A DNA stretch of 64,000 bases from a virus (Duplodnaviria; Heunggongvirae; Uroviricota; Caudoviricetes). The notes below the pieces were generated by a model. That model saw only the letters and a list, made by a program, of their open reading frames with translations. It was not told the DNA's origin and did no database searches. Numbering within the stretch: position 1 is the first letter of the stretch; every line of letters begins with the position of its first letter. A program made the position numbers and the translations under genes. Below are positions 18,678 through 63,964 of this stretch, in pieces. The stretch lies in the IMG/VR virus record IMGVR_UViG_2925908680_000001. One strand, given 5' to 3'.

Positions 18678-18879
18678 ATTAATTTGCTGTTTCTAAATCG
18701 GAATGTATGATCTGCATCATCGACAGAAGTCATCCATTGCTGAAATTTTTAGTTGATCTTCCATGTTTTCAGGCTTATATTCATGCCGTCGTAGCAAATT
18801 CTGCGACCAGGTTTGACAGCCTGAATGTTAGTGCGGACAACCGCAGATTTCCGATATTGCGGTATTTTTGTGTCCGTAA

Positions 18880-19020
18880 ACCGCGTTACGCCCGAATTAT
18901 GGTGGGGCGTGATGGGGAGGCTTCGGCCTGCTGGTTTCACTAACGCCAGTCTGTCAACCCTGTCACGTCCTGCCACCTGTTTGACAGCGGGTAGCAGGTT
19001 GTTAAACCTGTTAGTGAGGC
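18880..19020 (+). ncRNA. candidate C4-type antisense RNA / structured leader upstream of icd-like gene
   Basis: GC-rich hairpins in leader, position equivalent to P1 c4; not verified by covariance model. Confidence 0.3.
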
Positions 19021-58341: not shown

Positions 58342-58446
58342 AAATACTGACTGTTGCGCCCTGGCATTATCGTGGGGTATATTTCTACGGCACCTTAGAA
58401 AAACGGGTGCCGGGATTGGAACCCCGGATAATGCAAAAGGCGACAC

Positions 58447-58470
58447 AGACGCCGAAAGCGTCTTTTTTTG
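58447..58470 (+). terminator. rho-independent terminator agacgc-cgaaa-gcgtct + TTTTTTT
   Basis: Classic. Confidence 0.85.
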
Positions 58471-58499
58471 TGTCATGCCATCGCACAGCCATACGTAGC

Positions 58500-58640
58500 G
58501 TTTAGCTCAGAGATCAATGGTAGTGCTGGCTGGGCTGCCGAAAGGCAGGCCGGTTCCCTTTTGCGCCGGTAGTTCCAACCCAGTCAGTGCTACCGCCATT
58601 GAGATTGGAACCTCACGCGGTAGCTCCTTAAATTAGCAAA
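58500..58640 (+). ncRNA. candidate C4-type antisense RNA / structured leader upstream of second icd-like gene
   Basis: Multiple GC hairpins in 140-nt leader; position as P1 c4. Confidence 0.3.
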
Positions 58641-58654
58641 AGGAGGCTGCCAAT

Positions 58655-58870
58655 ATGGCTACTATCCCTACCCCAACTCATTCTGAATTTATCTGGCGTT
58701 TCTATTCCTGCCAAAAACACCTGTATATCTGCGTCATGGCTGCTACCGAAGCAGAAGCTCGTTCATACCTTCCTGAAGAACCCTGCATTTTTGCCGCACG
58801 CTTCACTCTTGATGCGATGGAGATCCTAAATTACTGGAATCTGCCAATGAACTGCGTGGAGGTGCACTGA
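58655..58870 (+). CDS. Icd-like small protein, paralog of 19028..19252
   Basis: 71 aa; SEFIWRFYSCQKH motif. Confidence 0.45.
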   Translation: MATIPTPTHSEFIWRFYSCQKHLYICVMAATEAEARSYLPEEPCIFAARFTLDAMEILNYWNLPMNCVEVH

Positions 58871-59811
58871 TGAATCTGTCCATCTCTCAAAAAGCGACAA
58901 TGACCAGTATTGAGATCGCGGAACTGGTAGGTAAGCGTCATGATAATGTGAAGCGTACCATTGAAGTATTAACTAAAGGTGGTGTCATTCAATTTCCTCA
59001 AATTGAGGAAATTGAAAATAAACAATCAGTTGGCCCTCGTCGATTTTCCAAGGCTTACATATTTGAAGGCGAACAAGGAAAACGAGACAGCATCATTGTC
59101 GTCGCGCAGCTCTCTCCGGAATTCACCGCCCGGCTGGTGGACCGCTGGCGCGAACTGGAGAATGCCCGGGTACAGTTAAAATCAAAAGCCGAAATTCTGG
59201 CTGAAATGGCGCAAATGCATCTTGAGCATGAACGCCGGATCAACGCCGTAAATGCCCAGGTAGCCGAGGTATCAGCACAAGTATCGATGGTCGCTGAAAC
59301 ACTCGAGCAAATCAAGAAAGGCAATATTCCGGAAGGCTACATTGGCTACCGCCAGCTGGCGGCGAAATGTGGCCTGACTGAAGCCAAATGTCGCAACCTG
59401 GTTAACGCTTTCCGGATTCCCACCGATACGCATGAGTTTTTAACTCCAGATGGTTTGCTTGCGCGACGCTCCATTGTGGCCCTGGTCCCCTTCCGGAAAG
59501 CCTTTAAGCAGGTGATGTCGGAGGCAGAACCACGCAATAAACGCTGGTATCATCCAAAGATGGGGATGTTTCAGGCAATCCACCATCCTGTGCCTGAAAG
59601 CCCAAAGGATAATCTGTCACTACATACCGTCAGAGAGAAGATCAGGACTGGATACGCAACAGTGTGTCGTCGTTCTTCCTGGCCTGAAGGTATATGGGTG
59701 TGGCCCGAAGGTGGATCACGAAAGCACTGGCGCACCATCCGTGACGGGAAAATCCATGCTATTGATTTAGCTCCAGAGGATGTTATTGCTATGGACTGGA
59801 TTGTTAGTTAA
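58870..59811 (+). CDS. antirepressor (Ant/Rha-type) fused to C-terminal DUF2829 (Tad2-like) domain
   Basis: 313 aa; N-terminus MTSIEIAELVGKRHDNVKRTIE; C-terminal 70 aa homologous to separate ORF 19959..20156. Confidence 0.6.
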   Translation: MNLSISQKATMTSIEIAELVGKRHDNVKRTIEVLTKGGVIQFPQIEEIENKQSVGPRRFSKAYIFEGEQGKRDSIIVVAQLSPEFTARLVDRWRELENARVQLKSKAEILAEMAQMHLEHERRINAVNAQVAEVSAQVSMVAETLEQIKKGNIPEGYIGYRQLAAKCGLTEAKCRNLVNAFRIPTDTHEFLTPDGLLARRSIVALVPFRKAFKQVMSEAEPRNKRWYHPKMGMFQAIHHPVPESPKDNLSLHTVREKIRTGYATVCRRSSWPEGIWVWPEGGSRKHWRTIRDGKIHAIDLAPEDVIAMDWIVS

Positions 59812-59818
59812 ATGCTGC

Positions 59819-59839
59819 ATCCCCGGCGACGCCGGGGAT
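59819..59839 (+). terminator. hairpin atccccggc-gac-gccggggat
   Basis: 9-bp GC stem after ant stop; weak U-tract. Confidence 0.55.
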
Positions 59840-59870
59840 TTAACTGCCAAATAATCGGATTATCCGCACG

Positions 59871-60182
59871 ATGAAAAAAATAGATTTCACTTATTCTGCC
59901 GCCACACTTGAGCGGCGCTTCACCCTCATTAGAGAGTTGGAACTGTCAAAAGTCTGGTATCAAATCCTACTGGATGAAGAGTTTTCACTGATGGTTATAG
60001 CAGAAAAATTGGCTATGCCTAATGATCGGCACAAGGTCATAGCCAGCCTCGATCTGGTGACAAACAGATACTGGGAAACAGAGGAACTACATGAGGCGGG
60101 AGTAATTCGTGACCTGATGGAGAATTCCGTTCCCCGCCGCTATCGTGCAGGGAACGGCATCTCCGTGGTTAAAGGTGTTTAA
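59871..60182 (+). CDS. hypothetical protein
   Basis: 103 aa ORF. Confidence 0.35.
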   Translation: MKKIDFTYSAATLERRFTLIRELELSKVWYQILLDEEFSLMVIAEKLAMPNDRHKVIASLDLVTNRYWETEELHEAGVIRDLMENSVPRRYRAGNGISVVKGV

Positions 60183-60591: not shown

Positions 60592-61215
60592 TTATTGCCC
60601 GTATTTTTTACACCATTGCTCTGCCATTTGTTTGGCTAAAGGCCCGGCTACTGCACTGTATTCTGCTGTTTTACTTTGCACACATGAAGCAGATGGTTTT
60701 TTATTTCGCTGCTCGGTTAGTTTGCGCTCATAAGCCATCATGCTATCGAACCCGGCAATATCACTTTGGCGAAGCATTCCCTTTTTAACCAAAAATTGCT
60801 GCCCCTCGGGCACCAGCGCAAGCATAAAAAGTGGTTGTAATAACTCACCTAATCCTTGCTGGCGATACACTTCGAATTGCTGCCATCCCTGACTTAATCT
60901 GGAAAGAGTATCTTTGGTTGAATAACCTGTTTTTGTTATAGCTTTGTCCGTCAGATATGCTGTATATGCAAAAACGCAAAAGTCAGTTTTACCAATAAAC
61001 TGAGTTCCAACAGGCCGTAATGGAATGCCCTCTCTCTTGCAAAAGTCCATAATTGCCGCTTGTGAATGATCCCCACCAGCGTTATTCATAACCTGCTGCC
61101 CTGCCCTGTATTGTGCAGGTAACGCAGTTGCATTGGCTGTATTAACAGATACGCATCCCAACATAGCCGCGAGCGCGGTCCCTAAAACCCTTAACTTCAC
61201 TACACCGTCCTTCAT
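60592..61215 (-). CDS. secreted/periplasmic protein (signal peptide)
   Basis: 207 aa; hydrophobic leader ...AAMLGCVSVNTANA. Confidence 0.45.
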   Translation of the reverse strand: MKDGVVKLRVLGTALAAMLGCVSVNTANATALPAQYRAGQQVMNNAGGDHSQAAIMDFCKREGIPLRPVGTQFIGKTDFCVFAYTAYLTDKAITKTGYSTKDTLSRLSQGWQQFEVYRQQGLGELLQPLFMLALVPEGQQFLVKKGMLRQSDIAGFDSMMAYERKLTEQRNKKPSASCVQSKTAEYSAVAGPLAKQMAEQWCKKYGQ

Positions 61216-61334
61216 GTAAACAAAATGAAGTTTTATGTTACAAAAACAATCAACTACATCAACATGATTTAGGCCAAATTTCGGTCAAAAAATAAAATCC
61301 ACAAAAAGTGGTTGACACTATTTTGGAAATCACA

Positions 61335-61357
61335 AACTGCACATAATCCATCGCGCT
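61335..61357 (+). promoter_or_regulatory. late-promoter-like element GGAAATCACAAACTG + -10 CATAAT
   Basis: Best match of the four-member family. Confidence 0.55.
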
Positions 61358-61431
61358 AACGGCTCCCGTTGAAGGTTCTTTTGACGATTAACTTTCAGCC
61401 GAAGCGCGGTAGGGAGTCATAACGCCAAAGC

Positions 61432-61457
61432 AGGCCGCCATGTGCGGCCTTTTTTTG
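61432..61457 (+). terminator. rho-independent terminator aggccgc-catgt-gcggcct + TTTTTTT located in leader between late promoter and next gene
   Basis: Classic stem plus U-tract. Confidence 0.85.
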
Positions 61458-61483
61458 TATCCGTCATCCGTGGAGGAAGGACA

Positions 61484-62137
61484 ATGGAAAAGATCGCAAT
61501 ATTCAGCCTGACCACCAGCAAGCCTCAAATGCTCACTGCAATACTGAAAGACGGTGCTCTCATTATTAACGAAGTAAAACCCCTTCCCGCGTCAGCATTG
61601 GAGCAAAAGCAAAAAATTCCTCCAGCCATAGCAGCCCTGCGGAAAAGCAAATTTAAGGTACTGGTAGACGAAATTACGCCAACGATCTCCGCTGGCACCG
61701 GAGCAAGCCAGGTGACTCTCAAGACCCGTCATGCCGATGGCAGAGCAGCAATCATCGTCGGGATGGAAAGATACAGAGAGTTAAAACTCCAGAAGCTATT
61801 ATCCCTGCCGCAAAATAACAAAGGTGCTTTCGAAATCCCCGACTCTATCGTTGATACCGAATACAACGGTAACGGAGAAGAAGTCTACAGGGTGAACTGG
61901 CAGGATATCAGGCCGGAGCATATTCTGATGATCCTGTGTTGCTACGCGACCGTATACCACAACGTTGCCAGTGCGGATTACGTAGAGCAGATGACCGGTA
62001 CAGTCGAGAAAGAGCAAAAAACAGGCATACTCGCTTCGTTCCTTTCCATTATTGGGCATGAAAAAGTTAAAGCAGGCACCTCCCAGCCAAAGTCACTGGC
62101 TGGGAAAGAAGTTGATGAAGATACCGTGATACTTTGA
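61484..62137 (+). CDS. hypothetical late protein
   Basis: ATG at 61484 with GGAGGAAGG SD (ORF track start 61442). Confidence 0.45.
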   Translation: MEKIAIFSLTTSKPQMLTAILKDGALIINEVKPLPASALEQKQKIPPAIAALRKSKFKVLVDEITPTISAGTGASQVTLKTRHADGRAAIIVGMERYRELKLQKLLSLPQNNKGAFEIPDSIVDTEYNGNGEEVYRVNWQDIRPEHILMILCCYATVYHNVASADYVEQMTGTVEKEQKTGILASFLSIIGHEKVKAGTSQPKSLAGKEVDEDTVIL

Positions 62138-62272
62138 TCACATTAGTAGCTTTGTTAACTCCCTCAACACCAGGTAGAAGAGTAACAAAAATATTGACGC
62201 GAGTATTTGAGTGGTCAATGAGGCGTTCATAAACAGATCAATTAGCTTTAATATTTCGAAGATAACATCCAT
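62138..62272 (-). CDS. 44-aa hydrophobic peptide (small membrane protein / type-I-toxin-like)
   Basis: GGAG SD 5 nt before ATG; MDVIFEILKLIDLFMNASLTTQILASIFLLLFYLVLRELTKLLM; convergent with 61484..62137. Confidence 0.35.
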   Translation of the reverse strand: MDVIFEILKLIDLFMNASLTTQILASIFLLLFYLVLRELTKLLM

Positions 62273-62445
62273 GTCATTCACTCCGTTTAATTTTTAATCT
62301 AATGCCAGCAAATGAAGCTGGCCCCCGCATAAAGATTAATGAAAGTCACTTGTCACCAGTGAGGGGATTTATGGTGGCCTGTCTGTTTCTCGCATTTCAC
62401 ACCCTGCATACAGTTTCCCCCAGGTTATGACTGAGAGGCTTTGTT

Positions 62446-62775
62446 ATGGGCTATAGCAGACTCGACGATAGGTACATTGAAGACGATATTTTTCGTGCGC
62501 TGTTTCACCAGGAAATGATTAAGCGGGTATCGGAGTATCACTCTGATAATTTCCAGTACACGATAAAGATTGATGAAGTATATCGTTCAGACCTTGCAGC
62601 CTACCGGGCGTATGGCAATGCAGATTTGCGCTGGGTATTCCGGGTGCTGGTGGGCCATGAGTCAGAAATGGAAGAAATGCCCGCCGGGACCACGTTAACT
62701 CTTCCTGATGTGGCATGGCTGAGGAATAAGATCCGTGATTACGCGAGCGCGGAACCGGAGATAGAAAATGCCTGA
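62446..62775 (+). CDS. hypothetical protein
   Basis: 109 aa ORF. Confidence 0.4.
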   Translation: MGYSRLDDRYIEDDIFRALFHQEMIKRVSEYHSDNFQYTIKIDEVYRSDLAAYRAYGNADLRWVFRVLVGHESEMEEMPAGTTLTLPDVAWLRNKIRDYASAEPEIENA

Positions 62776-63964
62776 TTTCCTGAAAAACCAGGACGGGCGC
62801 TATATCACTGACGGCCTGTCCTCTAAGGACTTCACGCGTTTATTCGACCTTATCAGGAAAGAACAAACCCGTAAGCGCCGGCAAGCTCACCGGACGCTGA
62901 CGCCAGGTAGACTGAGGAACAAATCCGCCGAAGATATTCTCAAGTTAGGGAAGAAAAAAGGCGGCACGTTCTTCACGCGAGACGACCTGAAAGGTTTCGA
63001 AAAGCTACGGAGTAAAACGCGCGAAAAATATGACAGCAAGACGGCTGGCATCACATACGCCCAGCTGGTGGCATCCAGCCAGGCAATCGATATTAAGCGT
63101 GCAAATAACGCCGTGGATGACGGATCCGGTATCAAAAGAGCTACCCCCGTATCTCTTCGCCACAATGTGATTAATATCCGCGTAGAAGCATCGGATATAT
63201 CCGTCCACCAGCACCATATCGTCCGGATACGCTTTGAAGAATGGGATCAGATGGTTGATGACATCGCAGAAGACGATAAATCAGCTCTCAAAATCACTAA
63301 ATCACTGTGCGCCGGGCGAGTGTCTTTCGATTGTGACTGTGGTCGTCATCAATACTGGTATCGTTACATCGCCACTGCGGGTAACTTTGCCCTGGCACCG
63401 CCAAAAGAATACGCCTATCCAAAAGTTCGCAACCCGAAGCTGCAAGGCGTCGCCTGTAAACACGTGATCCACTCAATGACGCGGTTACAGTCCGCCAGTT
63501 GGCAAATGAGTATTGCTCGTGCGCTACAAAAGGCTGCAACGCAAATTGCATTTGGTGACGATCGCCGCCGTACAACTAAACACTTCTCAAAAGAAGACGA
63601 GAAGGAGTTTAATCGCAATCGTAGCAGTAAAACGAACGTTGAAGCCGCCAAACGCGAATGGAGGCTCTATCAGAAGCGCCAGGCAGCTTTAAGTACAAAA
63701 CTGGCAAAGGACAACGGCAAGATCGACAAGCTACGTGACCAATTGACCAGGGCCAGAAAGTTGTCAGACGCACAGAAAAAACGGGCGGCTGCAAAAGAAG
63801 CGGCCTTGCAACGTGAGAAACAGAAAAATAAGGAACTTCAGCAACGCCTTGCCGATCAGTTCGCACTGAAGAAGCAGGCGTTCATTGATGCACTGGTCAT
63901 GGCAGGAACGTCACCTGAGCAAGCTGAAAAAATGTTTATGGAGTACGTGAAGAAAGGTTCTTGA
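62768..63964 (+). CDS. SWIM-type zinc-finger protein with basic coiled-coil C-terminus
   Basis: 398 aa; CDCGRHQYWY...CKHVIH (CxC-Xn-CxH). Confidence 0.45.
   Translation: MPDFLKNQDGRYITDGLSSKDFTRLFDLIRKEQTRKRRQAHRTLTPGRLRNKSAEDILKLGKKKGGTFFTRDDLKGFEKLRSKTREKYDSKTAGITYAQLVASSQAIDIKRANNAVDDGSGIKRATPVSLRHNVINIRVEASDISVHQHHIVRIRFEEWDQMVDDIAEDDKSALKITKSLCAGRVSFDCDCGRHQYWYRYIATAGNFALAPPKEYAYPKVRNPKLQGVACKHVIHSMTRLQSASWQMSIARALQKAATQIAFGDDRRRTTKHFSKEDEKEFNRNRSSKTNVEAAKREWRLYQKRQAALSTKLAKDNGKIDKLRDQLTRARKLSDAQKKRAAAKEAALQREKQKNKELQQRLADQFALKKQAFIDALVMAGTSPEQAEKMFMEYVKKGS

What the first reader, a model, noticed from the sequence alone, without database searches (positions are those of the whole stretch)
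61335..61483. Intrinsic terminator sitting between a late-promoter-like element and its first gene
The best late-promoter match (61335-61357) is followed about 75 nt later by a strong stem plus T7 terminator (61432-61457), and only then by the SD and ATG of the next gene. This means either a short late RNA is made, or expression of 61484..63964 needs read-through or antitermination (as with lambda Q at tR'). The upstream gene is on the other strand, so the terminator is not serving it.
Basis: seen in the sequence. Interest (0 to 1): 0.45.

Follow-up and report, generated by a model that had tools for sequence, protein, structure and literature searches.

The report
Conserved structured leader-terminator before phage mat
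Between a late promoter and the phage "maturation" gene mat lies a roughly 100-base folded RNA ending in a strong transcription stop signal; it is conserved across P1/D6-like plasmid-phages of many enterobacteria, phage P1 included, and looks like an undescribed switch on mat expression.

Summary
The window is a D6-like, P1-family plasmid prophage. A D6-type late-promoter motif (GGAAATCACAAACT-GCA-CATAAT, 61325-61347) recurs upstream of late operons: 7 sites against 1.4 expected. Here it is followed by a strong intrinsic terminator (61432-61456), then an SD and the ATG of mat (61484). The other five late promoters have 17-38 nt leaders; this one has 136 nt.

It is better conserved than mat itself. 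Its helices covary: 19 of 31 pairs changed on both sides, against 7.3 in shuffles. It occurs once per genome, always 19-27 nt before a Mat homologue, in Escherichia, Salmonella, Klebsiella, Enterobacter, Pantoea, Rosenbergiella, Xenorhabdus and Erwinia. It matches no Rfam family.

Phage P1 has a leader and terminator of the same topology, hidden inside the annotated N-terminus of Mat, whose start codon is probably mis-called.

Most likely this is a cis-acting attenuator. Transcripts stop to give an RNA of about 100 nt unless read-through occurs, probably controlled through the RNA domain. I could not decide between a trans-acting sRNA and regulated antitermination. There is no evidence for a lambda-Q-type mechanism.

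The parts
61312..61317 (+). TTGACA, a -35-like hexamer 24 nt upstream of the -10. It is conserved upstream of mat promoters only.
   Evidence: Present at 24-27 nt from the -10 in D6-type relatives. In P1 it is the annotated -35 of Pmat, with a 19-nt spacer. It is absent from the other late promoters of the window. Its function here was not tested.
61325..61347 (+). D6-type late (Lpa-type) promoter: box GGAAATCACAAACT, spacer GCA, -10 CATAAT.
   Evidence: Motif enrichment of 7 against 1.37 expected, 0/100 shuffles. It sits upstream of late genes. The same box/-10 layout is kept in Pantoea, Salmonella, Klebsiella and Rosenbergiella relatives. Lpa dependence is inferred, not shown.
61353..61425 (+). 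Structured leader domain (three-way junction).
- P1: 61353-61367 with 61412-61425
- P2: 61370-61377 with 61390-61397, loop CUUUUGACGAUU at 61378-61389
- P3: 61398-61401 with 61407-61410, containing the conserved GCGCGG
The inferred transcription start (about 61353) is the first base of P1.
   Evidence: MFE folds recover the P1/P2/P3 junction in about 10 of the 15 homologues; the other five give different or partial folds. Covariation: 92.4% of cells paired and 19/31 pairs with both-side changes, against 7.3±1.7 in shuffles (0/500) and 1-7 in slid controls. On an unfitted MAFFT alignment, 6 pairs against 3.1±1.0. Nucleotide identity is 71-97%, against 63-78% for the mat CDS. There is one copy per genome and no Rfam match.
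61426..61431 (+). A-rich linker (CAAAGC) between the domain and the terminator.
   Evidence: An A-rich stretch is kept in this position in the homologues. It can pair with the U-tract in MFE folds.
61432..61456 (+). Intrinsic terminator: 7-bp stem (6 G-C pairs), 5-nt loop and a U7 run.
   Evidence: The hairpin is kept in all homologues with compensatory G-C to A-U changes at its base. Predicted pairing probability is about 1.0 in 15/15 homologues. Termination activity itself was not tested.
61472..61480 (+). Shine-Dalgarno GGAGGAAGG of mat.
   Evidence: Read from the sequence. It lies 3 nt before the ATG at 61484.
61484..62137 (+). mat (maturation control protein homologue, 217 aa).
   Evidence: 97% DNA identity to D6 orf78 and 33% identity to P1 Mat, E=2e-40. 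PHROG 1837. The AlphaFold model (pLDDT 77.6) resembles large-terminase nuclease / RuvC-like domains.
62395..62414 (+). Candidate separate late promoter for genes 26/25 (TTTCACACCCTGCATACAGT).
   Evidence: It resembles the D6-type box/-10 and is conserved in the homologous spacers of L007, L008 and L010. Weak evidence; not tested statistically.
62446..63964 (+). Genes 26 (62446-62775, baseplate wedge) and 25 (62768-63964, tail protein), downstream of mat.
   Evidence: D6 annotation and PHROG 1269. In many relatives they overlap the mat stop codon and lack their own promoter.

Best explanation
This is the 5' leader of mat, and it acts in cis as a transcription attenuator.

Proposed course of events:
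1. An Lpa-type late promoter (61325-61347) starts an RNA at about 61353.
2. The first ~73 nt fold into a conserved three-way junction. It has a long closing helix P1, a hairpin P2 with an almost invariant U-rich loop CUUUUGAC(G/A)A, and a short hairpin P3 carrying GCGCGG.
3. Six nucleotides later a strong intrinsic terminator forms (61432-61456), 27 nt before the mat ATG.
4. By default RNA polymerase stops there and releases an RNA of about 100-105 nt.
5. Mat, a terminase-nuclease-like protein, is made only from transcripts that read through. The same applied ancestrally to the baseplate/tail genes 26 and 25.
6. I infer that the conserved RNA domain is the handle through which read-through is set: a phage or host factor, or RNA polymerase itself, recognises it, as in nut/put-type antitermination. 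I do not think it is a self-contained riboswitch.

Shown: the promoter motif, the fold and its covariation, the terminator, the strict linkage to mat, and the same topology in P1.
Inferred: that termination actually occurs, that read-through is regulated, and what recognises the RNA.
For: - Motif enrichment and an Lpa gene in the window.
- A uniquely long leader among the six late promoters.
- The leader is more conserved than the coding sequence and far more than the flanks.
- Covariation in P1, P2, P3 and the terminator. G-U pairs make the structure specific to the + strand RNA.
- One copy in the window and one in the whole D6 genome.
- A scan of IMG/VR with a DNA pattern that does not use mat, followed by the covariance model, found 28 instances. 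A Mat homologue begins 19-26 nt downstream of 27 of them; the 28th lies at a contig edge.
- The architecture is kept in Pantoea, Rosenbergiella, Xenorhabdus and Erwinia, where Mat is 35-53% identical.
- The same topology (P1-P2-P3 junction, linker, terminator, SD, ATG) is found in phage P1 between LPmat and the in-frame ATG at 2827.
- In relatives with mat-26-25 translationally coupled, genes that are essential in P1 (PMC10695390) lie behind the terminator with no other promoter, so read-through must happen.
- The terminator hairpin is predicted to form with probability ~1.0 in 15/15 homologues. So any relief must come from a factor rather than from an intrinsic alternative fold.
Against: - There are no transcript data. 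Neither termination nor read-through has been measured.
- No antiterminator protein has been identified. D6 annotation lists none.
- Other late operons restart with their own promoters after terminators, so late transcription is not generally terminator-resistant.
- A constitutive antiterminator RNA placed next to a terminator would be functionally neutral, so a conditional factor has to be assumed.
- The domain does not overlap the terminator, unlike RAT- or riboswitch-type attenuators.
- The compact, 5'-paired RNA with an A-rich linker and a U-tail also looks like a stable trans-acting sRNA.
Confidence: 0.55

Rival explanations
1. The terminated ~100-nt RNA is the main functional product: a late, trans-acting small RNA that uses the conserved P2 loop to pair with a phage or host RNA or to bind a host protein. 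Mat is then made only from basal terminator leak.
For: - The shape is typical of sRNAs: a 5' stable domain, an A-rich linker and a terminator with a U-tail.
- The loop is almost invariant while the stems covary.
- The 3' half gives a weak hit to the Hfq-binding isrK model (14.7 bits, E=2.7).
- Leader-derived sRNAs made by premature termination are an established class (general knowledge).
Against: - No convincing target was found in the window. The best non-self duplex with the P2 region is -19.0 kcal/mol at 34956-34995, within the noise of the next hits at -18.3 to -17.9. The complement of the loop is not enriched.
- The RNA is never found apart from mat, which a free-standing sRNA gene would not require.
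- Host genomes were not searched.
Confidence: 0.22
2. A passive dosage lock or insulator. The terminator simply keeps expression of a potentially toxic nuclease-like Mat very low and blocks read-in from the upstream ant/pmgF operon. The folded domain only stabilises or processes the 5' end.
For: - Mat has a TerL-nuclease / RuvC-like fold.
- + strand genes (icd, ant, pmgF; 58655-60182) lie upstream and could read in.
- No alternative fold competes with the terminator.
Against: - A mere terminator would not need 73 nt of sequence that is better conserved than the protein, nor an invariant loop and junction.
- Read-in transcripts would also have to cross two antisense genes.
- In coupled lineages the genes 26 and 25, essential in P1, depend on passing the terminator.
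Confidence: 0.15
3. A lambda-Q-like late antitermination system: a DNA-bound factor loads onto polymerase paused near the promoter and carries it through the terminator.
For: The order late promoter -> short RNA -> terminator -> late genes resembles PR'-6S RNA-tR' (established lambda biology). The review text in PMC10695390 says P1 is suspected of encoding antiterminators.
Against: - By eye, no -10-like pause element in the first transcribed bases (CCATCGCGCTAACGG).
- No Q-family gene is annotated in D6.
- Only one operon carries the terminator.
- Conservation and covariation point to RNA-level rather than DNA-level recognition.
Confidence: 0.04
4. The conserved stretch encodes a leader peptide (TTG 61369, MKVLLTINFQPKRGRES), as in trp-type attenuation. 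Alternatively the whole arrangement is chance.
For: An 18-codon open frame (17 residues plus the stop) exists in the window and in the Enterobacter-type relative, with the stop codon at the same place.
Against: - All differences between lineages are nonsynonymous.
- Neither the frame length nor the peptide is kept in the Pantoea type.
- There is no SD.
- The substitutions instead preserve base pairs.
- Chance is excluded by conservation across eight genera in this survey (nine with Raoultella) and by the covariation.
Confidence: 0.02

Closest known systems
Lambda PR' - qut - 6S RNA - tR' with antiterminator Q
   Same: A late promoter is followed by an intrinsic terminator before the late genes. 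A short terminated RNA is the default product, and late genes need read-through.
   Different: - Lambda PR' is a constitutive sigma-70 promoter, and Q acts through a DNA site plus a sigma-dependent pause.
- Here the promoter carries an activator (Lpa-type) box, and no pause element or Q gene was found.
- A conserved structured RNA lies between promoter and terminator.
- Only the mat operon is affected.
Phage P1 ref leader ('attenuator-antiterminator control', Windle, Laufer & Hays 1988, J Bacteriol 170:4881; title as cited in PMC10695390, ref 74)
   Same: It belongs to the same phage family and the gene lies next to mat in P1. The order is promoter -> ~65-nt leader -> strong terminator (GGCGGCC-ATTA-GGCCGCC-T8) -> start codon within about 10 nt.
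   Different: - No detectable homology to the mat leader: the covariance model scores 17.5 bits, on the terminator part only.
- No three-way junction.
- The ref gene of this window has no such terminator.
- I could not read the paper, only its title.
P1 mat dual promoter Pmat/LPmat with operator Omat (Lehnherr et al. 2001, J Bacteriol 183:4105; reference listed in PMC10695390; content recalled from memory)
   Same: It is the orthologous gene and promoter region, with a TTGACA -35-like hexamer, a late box and a shared -10.
   Different: - The P1 annotation places the mat ATG 20 nt after the -10, so the leader and terminator are hidden inside the annotated ORF.
- The box sequence differs: AAGTGACTT in P1, ATCACAAAC in the D6 type.
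- In the D6 type the TTGACA-to-(-10) spacer is 24-27 nt.
- No P1-type or D6-type operator lies within 1 mismatch near mat here.
HK022 put and lambda nut: cis-acting RNA sites for processive antitermination
   Same: A structured RNA is transcribed between a promoter and a terminator, and could make the transcribing polymerase resistant to that terminator. The P2 loop (CUUUUGACAAUU in some relatives) loosely resembles boxA (CUCUUUAACAAUU).
   Different: - put is two tandem stem-loops and nut is boxA plus a boxB hairpin. Here two hairpins are closed by a long helix.
- The resemblances are recalled by eye and were not tested.
- No N-like protein is known here.
Leader-derived sRNAs and terminator-type riboswitches or attenuators
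   Same: A folded 5' leader is followed by an intrinsic terminator. Premature termination yields a discrete small RNA.
   Different: - No conserved antiterminator competes with the terminator.
- P1 is long (12-15 bp) and stable, unlike ligand-gated P1 helices.
- No Rfam family matches.

Membership tests
Intrinsic (Rho-independent) terminator | G+C-rich hairpin immediately followed by a U-run | tested here: met
   7-bp stem with 6 G-C pairs, a 5-nt loop and U7; -12.5 kcal/mol.
Intrinsic (Rho-independent) terminator | Hairpin maintained in relatives by compensatory change | tested here: met
   The two basal pairs change G-C to A-U and the other pairs are invariant; 99% of cells are paired.
Intrinsic (Rho-independent) terminator | Actually releases RNA polymerase | not testable with these tools
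   Needs in vitro transcription or Term-seq.
P1-family Lpa-dependent late promoter | P1 consensus: 9-bp box AAGTKACTT, 4 nt, then TAnnnT (from the six annotated P1 late promoters read here) | tested here: not met
   The consensus was derived. It is not enriched in the window and is absent at mat.
P1-family Lpa-dependent late promoter | A recurrent box at fixed distance from a -10, upstream of late operons, with an Lpa gene in the genome | tested here: met
   AAATCACAnACT-N3-hexamer: 7 hits against 1.37 expected, upstream of R, lydA, prt, lysozyme, a ddrB-like gene and mat. Lpa homologue at E=5e-57.
P1-family Lpa-dependent late promoter | Activity depends on Lpa | not testable with these tools
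   Needs a reporter with and without Lpa.
Lambda Q / qut late antitermination | -10-like pause-inducing element in the initial transcribed region, and a Q-family protein | tested here: not met
   No TAnnnT in 61348-61365, by inspection only. No Q annotated in the D6 genome. The ORFs of the window were not scanned exhaustively.
Terminator/antiterminator riboswitch or attenuator | A conserved alternative pairing that sequesters the 5' arm of the terminator | tested here: inconclusive
   At equilibrium the terminator pairs form with p≈1.0 in 15/15 homologues. In RNAs truncated before the 3' arm, the 5' end pairs with the terminator arm in Pantoea, L057 and Xenorhabdus, but not in the window or its close relatives.
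Leader-peptide attenuator | A conserved, translatable small ORF in the leader | tested here: not met
   Only nonsynonymous differences, the frame is not conserved in length, and there is no SD.
Any described RNA family (Rfam 15) | Covariance-model match at or near the gathering score | tested here: not met
   No hit at gathering thresholds. At E≤10 the only hit is isrK at 14.7 bits against a gathering score of 50, covering the terminator half.
RfaH ops element | GGCGGTAGnnTG conserved on the non-template strand | tested here: not met
   The window has GCGGTAG (61405-61411), but relatives read GCGGTTG, GCGGAC or GCGGAA. The ops consensus is from memory.
nut-type site (boxA/boxB) | Single-stranded boxA (CGCUCUUUAACAA-like) next to a boxB hairpin bound by an N protein | tested here: inconclusive
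   Only a by-eye resemblance between the P2 loop and boxA. No N homologue was sought.

The most novel reading that the evidence does not exclude
The mat leader is a new class of phage cis-acting antitermination or sensor RNA. Its three-way junction is read by RNA polymerase or by a phage or host factor, and that decides whether polymerase started at the late promoter passes the terminator. This would time or dose a terminase-nuclease-like maturation protein. It would be the first concrete element behind the long-suspected antitermination in P1-family phages. A further-out version is that the RNA is also a partner of the RNase-H-fold Mat protein.
Probability: 0.3. Interest if true: 0.75.

Novelty: new member of a known kind. 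Interest (0 to 1): 0.6.

Why it matters
P1 is a classic model phage, and P1/D6-like phage-plasmids are widespread carriers of resistance and other cargo genes in Enterobacterales.

Late control in this family is described as activation by Lpa alone. Antitermination has been suspected but never tied to a site (PMC10695390). A conserved, covarying leader RNA with a built-in terminator in front of mat gives a precise element that can be mutated to test that idea.

It also suggests that the reference P1 Mat protein is annotated with 37 spurious N-terminal residues. And it adds a candidate RNA family that is absent from Rfam.

Tried and rejected
- **P1 late-promoter consensus:** not enriched in the window. 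It was replaced by a motif found de novo.
- **Rfam:** nothing, at gathering thresholds or at E≤10.
- **Leader peptide:** rejected on the substitution pattern.
- **RfaH ops (GCGGTAG):** the TAG is not conserved.
- **DNA-level -35-like plus -10-like pause element in the leader (TTGACG-AT-TAACTT):** the spacing is inconsistent between lineages, and the bases covary as the P2 stem.
- **Pseudoknot between the 5' CGCGC and GCGCG:** only possible in close relatives, and it uses bases upstream of the likely start site.
- **Trans target search:** RNAduplex over the window found nothing above noise. The complement of the loop is not enriched.
- **Pairing of the P2 loop with the mat RBS region:** not conserved.
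- **Second copy of the element in front of other late operons:** none in the window, D6, or P1 positions 1-50,000.
- **Homology to the P1 ref leader or to the window's isrK-like RNA:** only the terminators resemble each other.
- **C1 operator near mat:** no P1-type site in the window, and no D6-type WTTTCTAAYA site within 1 mismatch.
- **MAFFT plus RNAalifold on distant homologues:** recovered only the terminator, because the helices were misaligned. A covariance-model alignment was needed.
- **Papers not held, so quoted by title or from memory only:** Lobocka 2004, Gilcrease & Casjens 2018, Windle 1988 and Lehnherr 2001.

Full report
**Context.** The window is a D6-like member of the P1 family of plasmid prophages. 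From 61164 onward it is 97% identical to Escherichia phage D6. There the genes after the finding are annotated as homologues of P1 mat (maturation control), 26 (baseplate wedge) and 25 (tail). The upstream gene (60592-61215, minus strand) differs from the D6 gene in that position. An Lpa (late promoter activator) homologue lies at 35114-35503 (Pfam BPP1_LPA, E=5e-57).

**The observation.**
- The terminator is as described. The stem is AGGCCGC/GCGGCCT at 61432-61450, the loop is CATGT, and the run of seven T is 61450-61456. The hairpin energy is -12.5 kcal/mol. It is flagged on the + strand only.
- The SD GGAGGAAGG (61472-61480) and the ATG at 61484 follow it, 27 nt after the T-run.
- For the promoter I first derived the P1 late-promoter consensus from the richly annotated P1 record: AAGTKACTT, 4 nt, TAnnnT. 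That consensus is not enriched in this window.
- Reading the regions upstream of the late operons showed a different recurrent element, (G)AAATCACAnACT, 3 nt, then a -10-like hexamer.
- AAATCACANACT with at most one mismatch occurs 7 times against 1.37 expected, and 0 of 100 shuffles reach 7. Six of the seven sites sit just upstream of R, lydA, a ddrB-like gene, prt, the lysozyme gene and mat.
- The -10 to start-codon distance is 17-38 nt at the other five promoters and 136 nt at mat. The arrangement is therefore real and exceptional within this genome.

**What lies between promoter and terminator.**
- Aligning the region from D6-like plasmids of E. coli, E. fergusonii, E. marmotae and Enterobacter showed that 61353-61457 is the best-conserved stretch of the locus.
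- Against nine relatives the leader is 71-97% identical, the mat coding sequence 63-78%, the 100 nt upstream 46-78%, and the 26 nt between terminator and ATG 4-62%.
- A protein-guided search of one genome per species recovered mat loci from Pantoea, Enterobacter, Rosenbergiella, Xenorhabdus and Erwinia, with Mat only 35-53% identical. In every one the gene is preceded by a folded leader and a G+C hairpin with a U-run. Further relatives from assemblies show the same.
- Single-sequence folds recover one common architecture in about 10 of the 15 homologues folded; the Pantoea type, L053 and the three Xenorhabdus sequences give different or only partial folds:
  - a long closing helix P1, whose 5' strand begins at the inferred transcription start (about 61353);
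  - hairpin P2 with a 12-15-nt loop of near-invariant sequence YUUUU(Y)GRCRAYU;
  - a directly adjacent short hairpin P3 that contains the conserved GCGCGG;
  - an A-rich linker, then the terminator.

**Covariation.**
- I built a covariance model from eight sequences with this structure.
- On the model-guided alignment of 14 distinct homologues, 92.4% of cells form standard pairs, against 82.5% in shuffles.
- 19 of 31 pairs show changes on both sides, against 7.3±1.7 in shuffles (0/500) and 1-7 in the slid controls. All 12 P1 pairs covary.
- That alignment leans towards the structure. On the unfitted MAFFT alignment of the eight close sequences the figures are 94.7% paired and 6 pairs with double changes, against 3.1±1.0 (2/500).
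- Frequent G-U pairs mean the fold is specific to the + strand transcript.
- A small open frame in the leader is not coding: all differences are nonsynonymous and the frame is not conserved.

**Distribution and linkage.**
- The model finds exactly one copy in the window (61353-61457, 123.8 bits), one in the complete D6 genome, and none elsewhere.
- A DNA pattern made only of leader motifs retrieved 64 stretches from IMG/VR. I ran the model on 34 of these; the rest lie on contigs already fetched. Twenty-eight of the 34 were confirmed by the model.
- A Mat homologue begins 19-26 nt downstream of 27 of the 28. The 28th lies at a contig edge.
- In PLSDB the leader occurs in 121 plasmids of Escherichia, Salmonella, Shigella and Enterobacter.
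- No Rfam 15 family matches. The only hit at E≤10 is isrK at 14.7 bits, over the terminator half.

**Phage P1 itself.**
- The P1 annotation puts LPmat only 20 nt before the mat ATG at 2716, which at first seemed to show that P1 lacks the leader.
- However, P1 Mat aligns with the window's Mat only from its residue 40 (33% identity, E=2e-40).
- An in-frame ATG at 2827, preceded by GGGGG, matches the D6-type start.
- The 130 nt between the LPmat -10 and that ATG fold (-43.3 kcal/mol, z=-2.3) into the same topology:
  - a 10-bp closing helix, CGCCCGGUAC/GUACCGGGCG;
  - a hairpin with a U-rich 15-nt loop, UCCCUUUUCAAAUAU;
  - an adjacent short hairpin, then a linker;
  - a terminator, AGCCGCC-GCU-GGUGGCU followed by UUUUCUUUUUU.
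- In P1-type plasmids whose Mat is 85-90% identical, a 1-nt deletion puts the upstream ATG out of frame, while the leader is almost unchanged. RefSeq annotates the short start in those records.
- So the layout also exists in P1, and the 250-aa P1 Mat annotation very probably includes 37 residues that are really leader and terminator.
- The D6-type model does not detect the P1 leader. The two are related in topology and position, not in detectable sequence.

**How it most likely works.**
- If the promoter and terminator work as their sequences predict, the default product is an RNA of about 100-105 nt, and mat is expressed only by read-through.
- In many relatives mat, 26 and 25 overlap stop-to-start with no room for another promoter. 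P1 genes 25, 26 and mat are reported as essential (PMC10695390). So appreciable read-through must occur during lytic growth.
- In this window, in D6 and in several other lineages, cargo has been inserted between mat and 26: a small hydrophobic ORF here, HicAB or RelE/HigA elsewhere. A late-promoter-like motif then precedes 26 (62395-62414). Here the leader therefore gates mat alone.
- The terminator hairpin forms with probability ~1.0 in all 15 homologues at equilibrium. An alternative pairing of the RNA 5' end with the 5' arm of the terminator appears only in some distant lineages. I therefore do not think this is a self-contained riboswitch.
- The strong conservation of the P2 loop and the junction, against covarying stems, indicates sequence-specific recognition by a protein, by RNA polymerase or by another RNA.
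- Other late operons have their own promoters placed after terminators, so late transcription is not generally terminator-proof.
- I therefore favour a cis-acting attenuator whose read-through is set through the RNA domain by a factor (confidence 0.55 for the attenuator reading as a whole). The main rivals are a trans-acting sRNA (0.22) and a passive dosage lock (0.15).
- A search for trans targets in the window found nothing above noise.
- Mat's predicted fold resembles the nuclease domain of large terminases and RuvC-like resolvases (pLDDT 77.6; 5m1f E=3.7e-4, TM 0.46-0.53). A tight lock on its expression would make sense.

**Comparison with known systems.**
- The closest functional analogy is lambda PR'-6S RNA-tR'/Q, but its defining features were not found: a sigma-dependent pause element and a Q protein.
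- Within the family, the P1 ref gene has a promoter -> leader -> terminator -> ATG layout, for which 'attenuator-antiterminator control' was proposed in 1988. I know that paper only by its title, via PMC10695390. Its leader shows no homology to the mat leader, and the ref gene of this window lacks it.
- P1 mat is known for a dual sigma-70/late promoter with a C1 operator (Lehnherr 2001, recalled from memory; the reference is listed). The TTGACA conserved upstream of all mat promoters (61312-61317) fits that, but here the spacing to the -10 is 24-27 nt and no operator-like site is near.
- Resemblances to put, nut boxA and RfaH ops were considered. They are either not met or only by-eye leads.

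**Verdict.** The finding is confirmed, and it turns out to be more than a terminator in an odd place. It is a conserved, structured, apparently undescribed leader RNA with a built-in terminator, tied to mat throughout the P1/D6 phage-plasmid family. It is a new member of a known kind (transcription-attenuating leaders, antitermination sites and leader-derived sRNAs). Its mechanism is unresolved but directly testable.

Noticed in passing
L002 (phage P1 NC_005856) 2716-2830: The annotated start of P1 mat (2716, 250 aa) lies inside the P2 stem of the leader, and the annotated ORF reads through the terminator. The D6-type alignment, the SD, a frame-breaking 1-nt indel in P1-type plasmids and the RefSeq calls in those plasmids all point to the ATG at 2827 (213 aa) as the real start.
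   Followed up: yes
window 61484-62137: Mat has no Pfam hit, but its AlphaFold model (pLDDT 77.6 overall; residues 1-160 high, C-terminal ~50 low) matches large-terminase nuclease domains and RuvC-like resolvases. 'Maturation control' may therefore be a nuclease-type function.
   Followed up: partly
window 1941, 9461, 13257, 14704, 20730(-), 61327: This D6-like group uses a late-promoter box (AAATCACAnACT-N3-hexamer) different from the annotated P1 box (AAGTKACTT-N4-hexamer). Broader relatives use AAAGTACAAACC-N3-TAnAAT.
   Followed up: yes
window 62138-62351, minus strand: The cargo spacer between mat and gene 26 holds a conserved 44-aa hydrophobic ORF (62138-62272, MDVIFEILKLIDLF..., PHROG 38362). 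It is preceded by a perfect P1-type late-promoter box, AAGTGACTT-TCAT-TAATCT (62351-62333), and a hairpin. Two sigma-70-like sites (62277-62250 and 62218-62190) also point antisense to mat. Relatives carry HicAB or RelE/HigA at this spot.
   Followed up: partly
L006 2303-2362; L059 2700-2770: In the Enterobacter and Raoultella relatives, the late-promoter-like motif before gene 26 is followed at once by a terminator hairpin. The likely start site falls inside the 5' arm of that hairpin. The hairpin could therefore stop mat transcripts yet be incomplete in transcripts started at the gene-26 promoter.
   Followed up: partly
window 58390-58600 and 18775-18980: There are two immI-like modules. One has c4-a1b1 plus C4 RNA (18775-18980). 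The other has an isrK-like RNA with its own terminator (58390-58468) followed by C4 (58513-58600), icd-like and ant genes. This second module is another promoter-proximal small RNA with a terminator ahead of protein genes.
   Followed up: no
window 17468, 18669, 35025, 39458, 40868, 53613, 57187 and others: The motif WTTTCTAAYA is enriched (13 sites against 5.6 expected, 0/100 shuffles). It lies near the repL, immI, lpa, c1 and ref promoters, so it is probably the operator of the D6-type C1 repressor. The P1 operator consensus has no match in the window.
   Followed up: partly
window 61312-61317 and relatives: A TTGAC(A/C) hexamer is conserved 24-27 nt upstream of the -10 of every D6-type mat promoter (19 nt in P1, where it is the -35 of Pmat). 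It is absent from the other late promoters. Its role at this spacing is unexplained.
   Followed up: partly
L002 2047-2070 (phage P1): The P1 ref gene has a strong terminator (GGCGGCC-ATTA-GGCCGCC-T8) about 10 nt before its ATG, downstream of its C1-controlled promoter. The ref homologue of this window (57265) has no such terminator.
   Followed up: partly
window 61164: There is a mosaic junction with D6. Identity starts inside the N-terminus of the divergent upstream gene (60592-61215, PHROG 12786, function unknown). In D6 the gene at that position is simB-like instead.
   Followed up: no
L129 (Enterobacter kobei) and L130 (Vibrio) upstream of mat homologues: These more distant mat loci show no obvious leader and terminator of this type. 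E. kobei has only a hairpin with a UUCGACA-containing loop directly before the annotated start.
   Followed up: no
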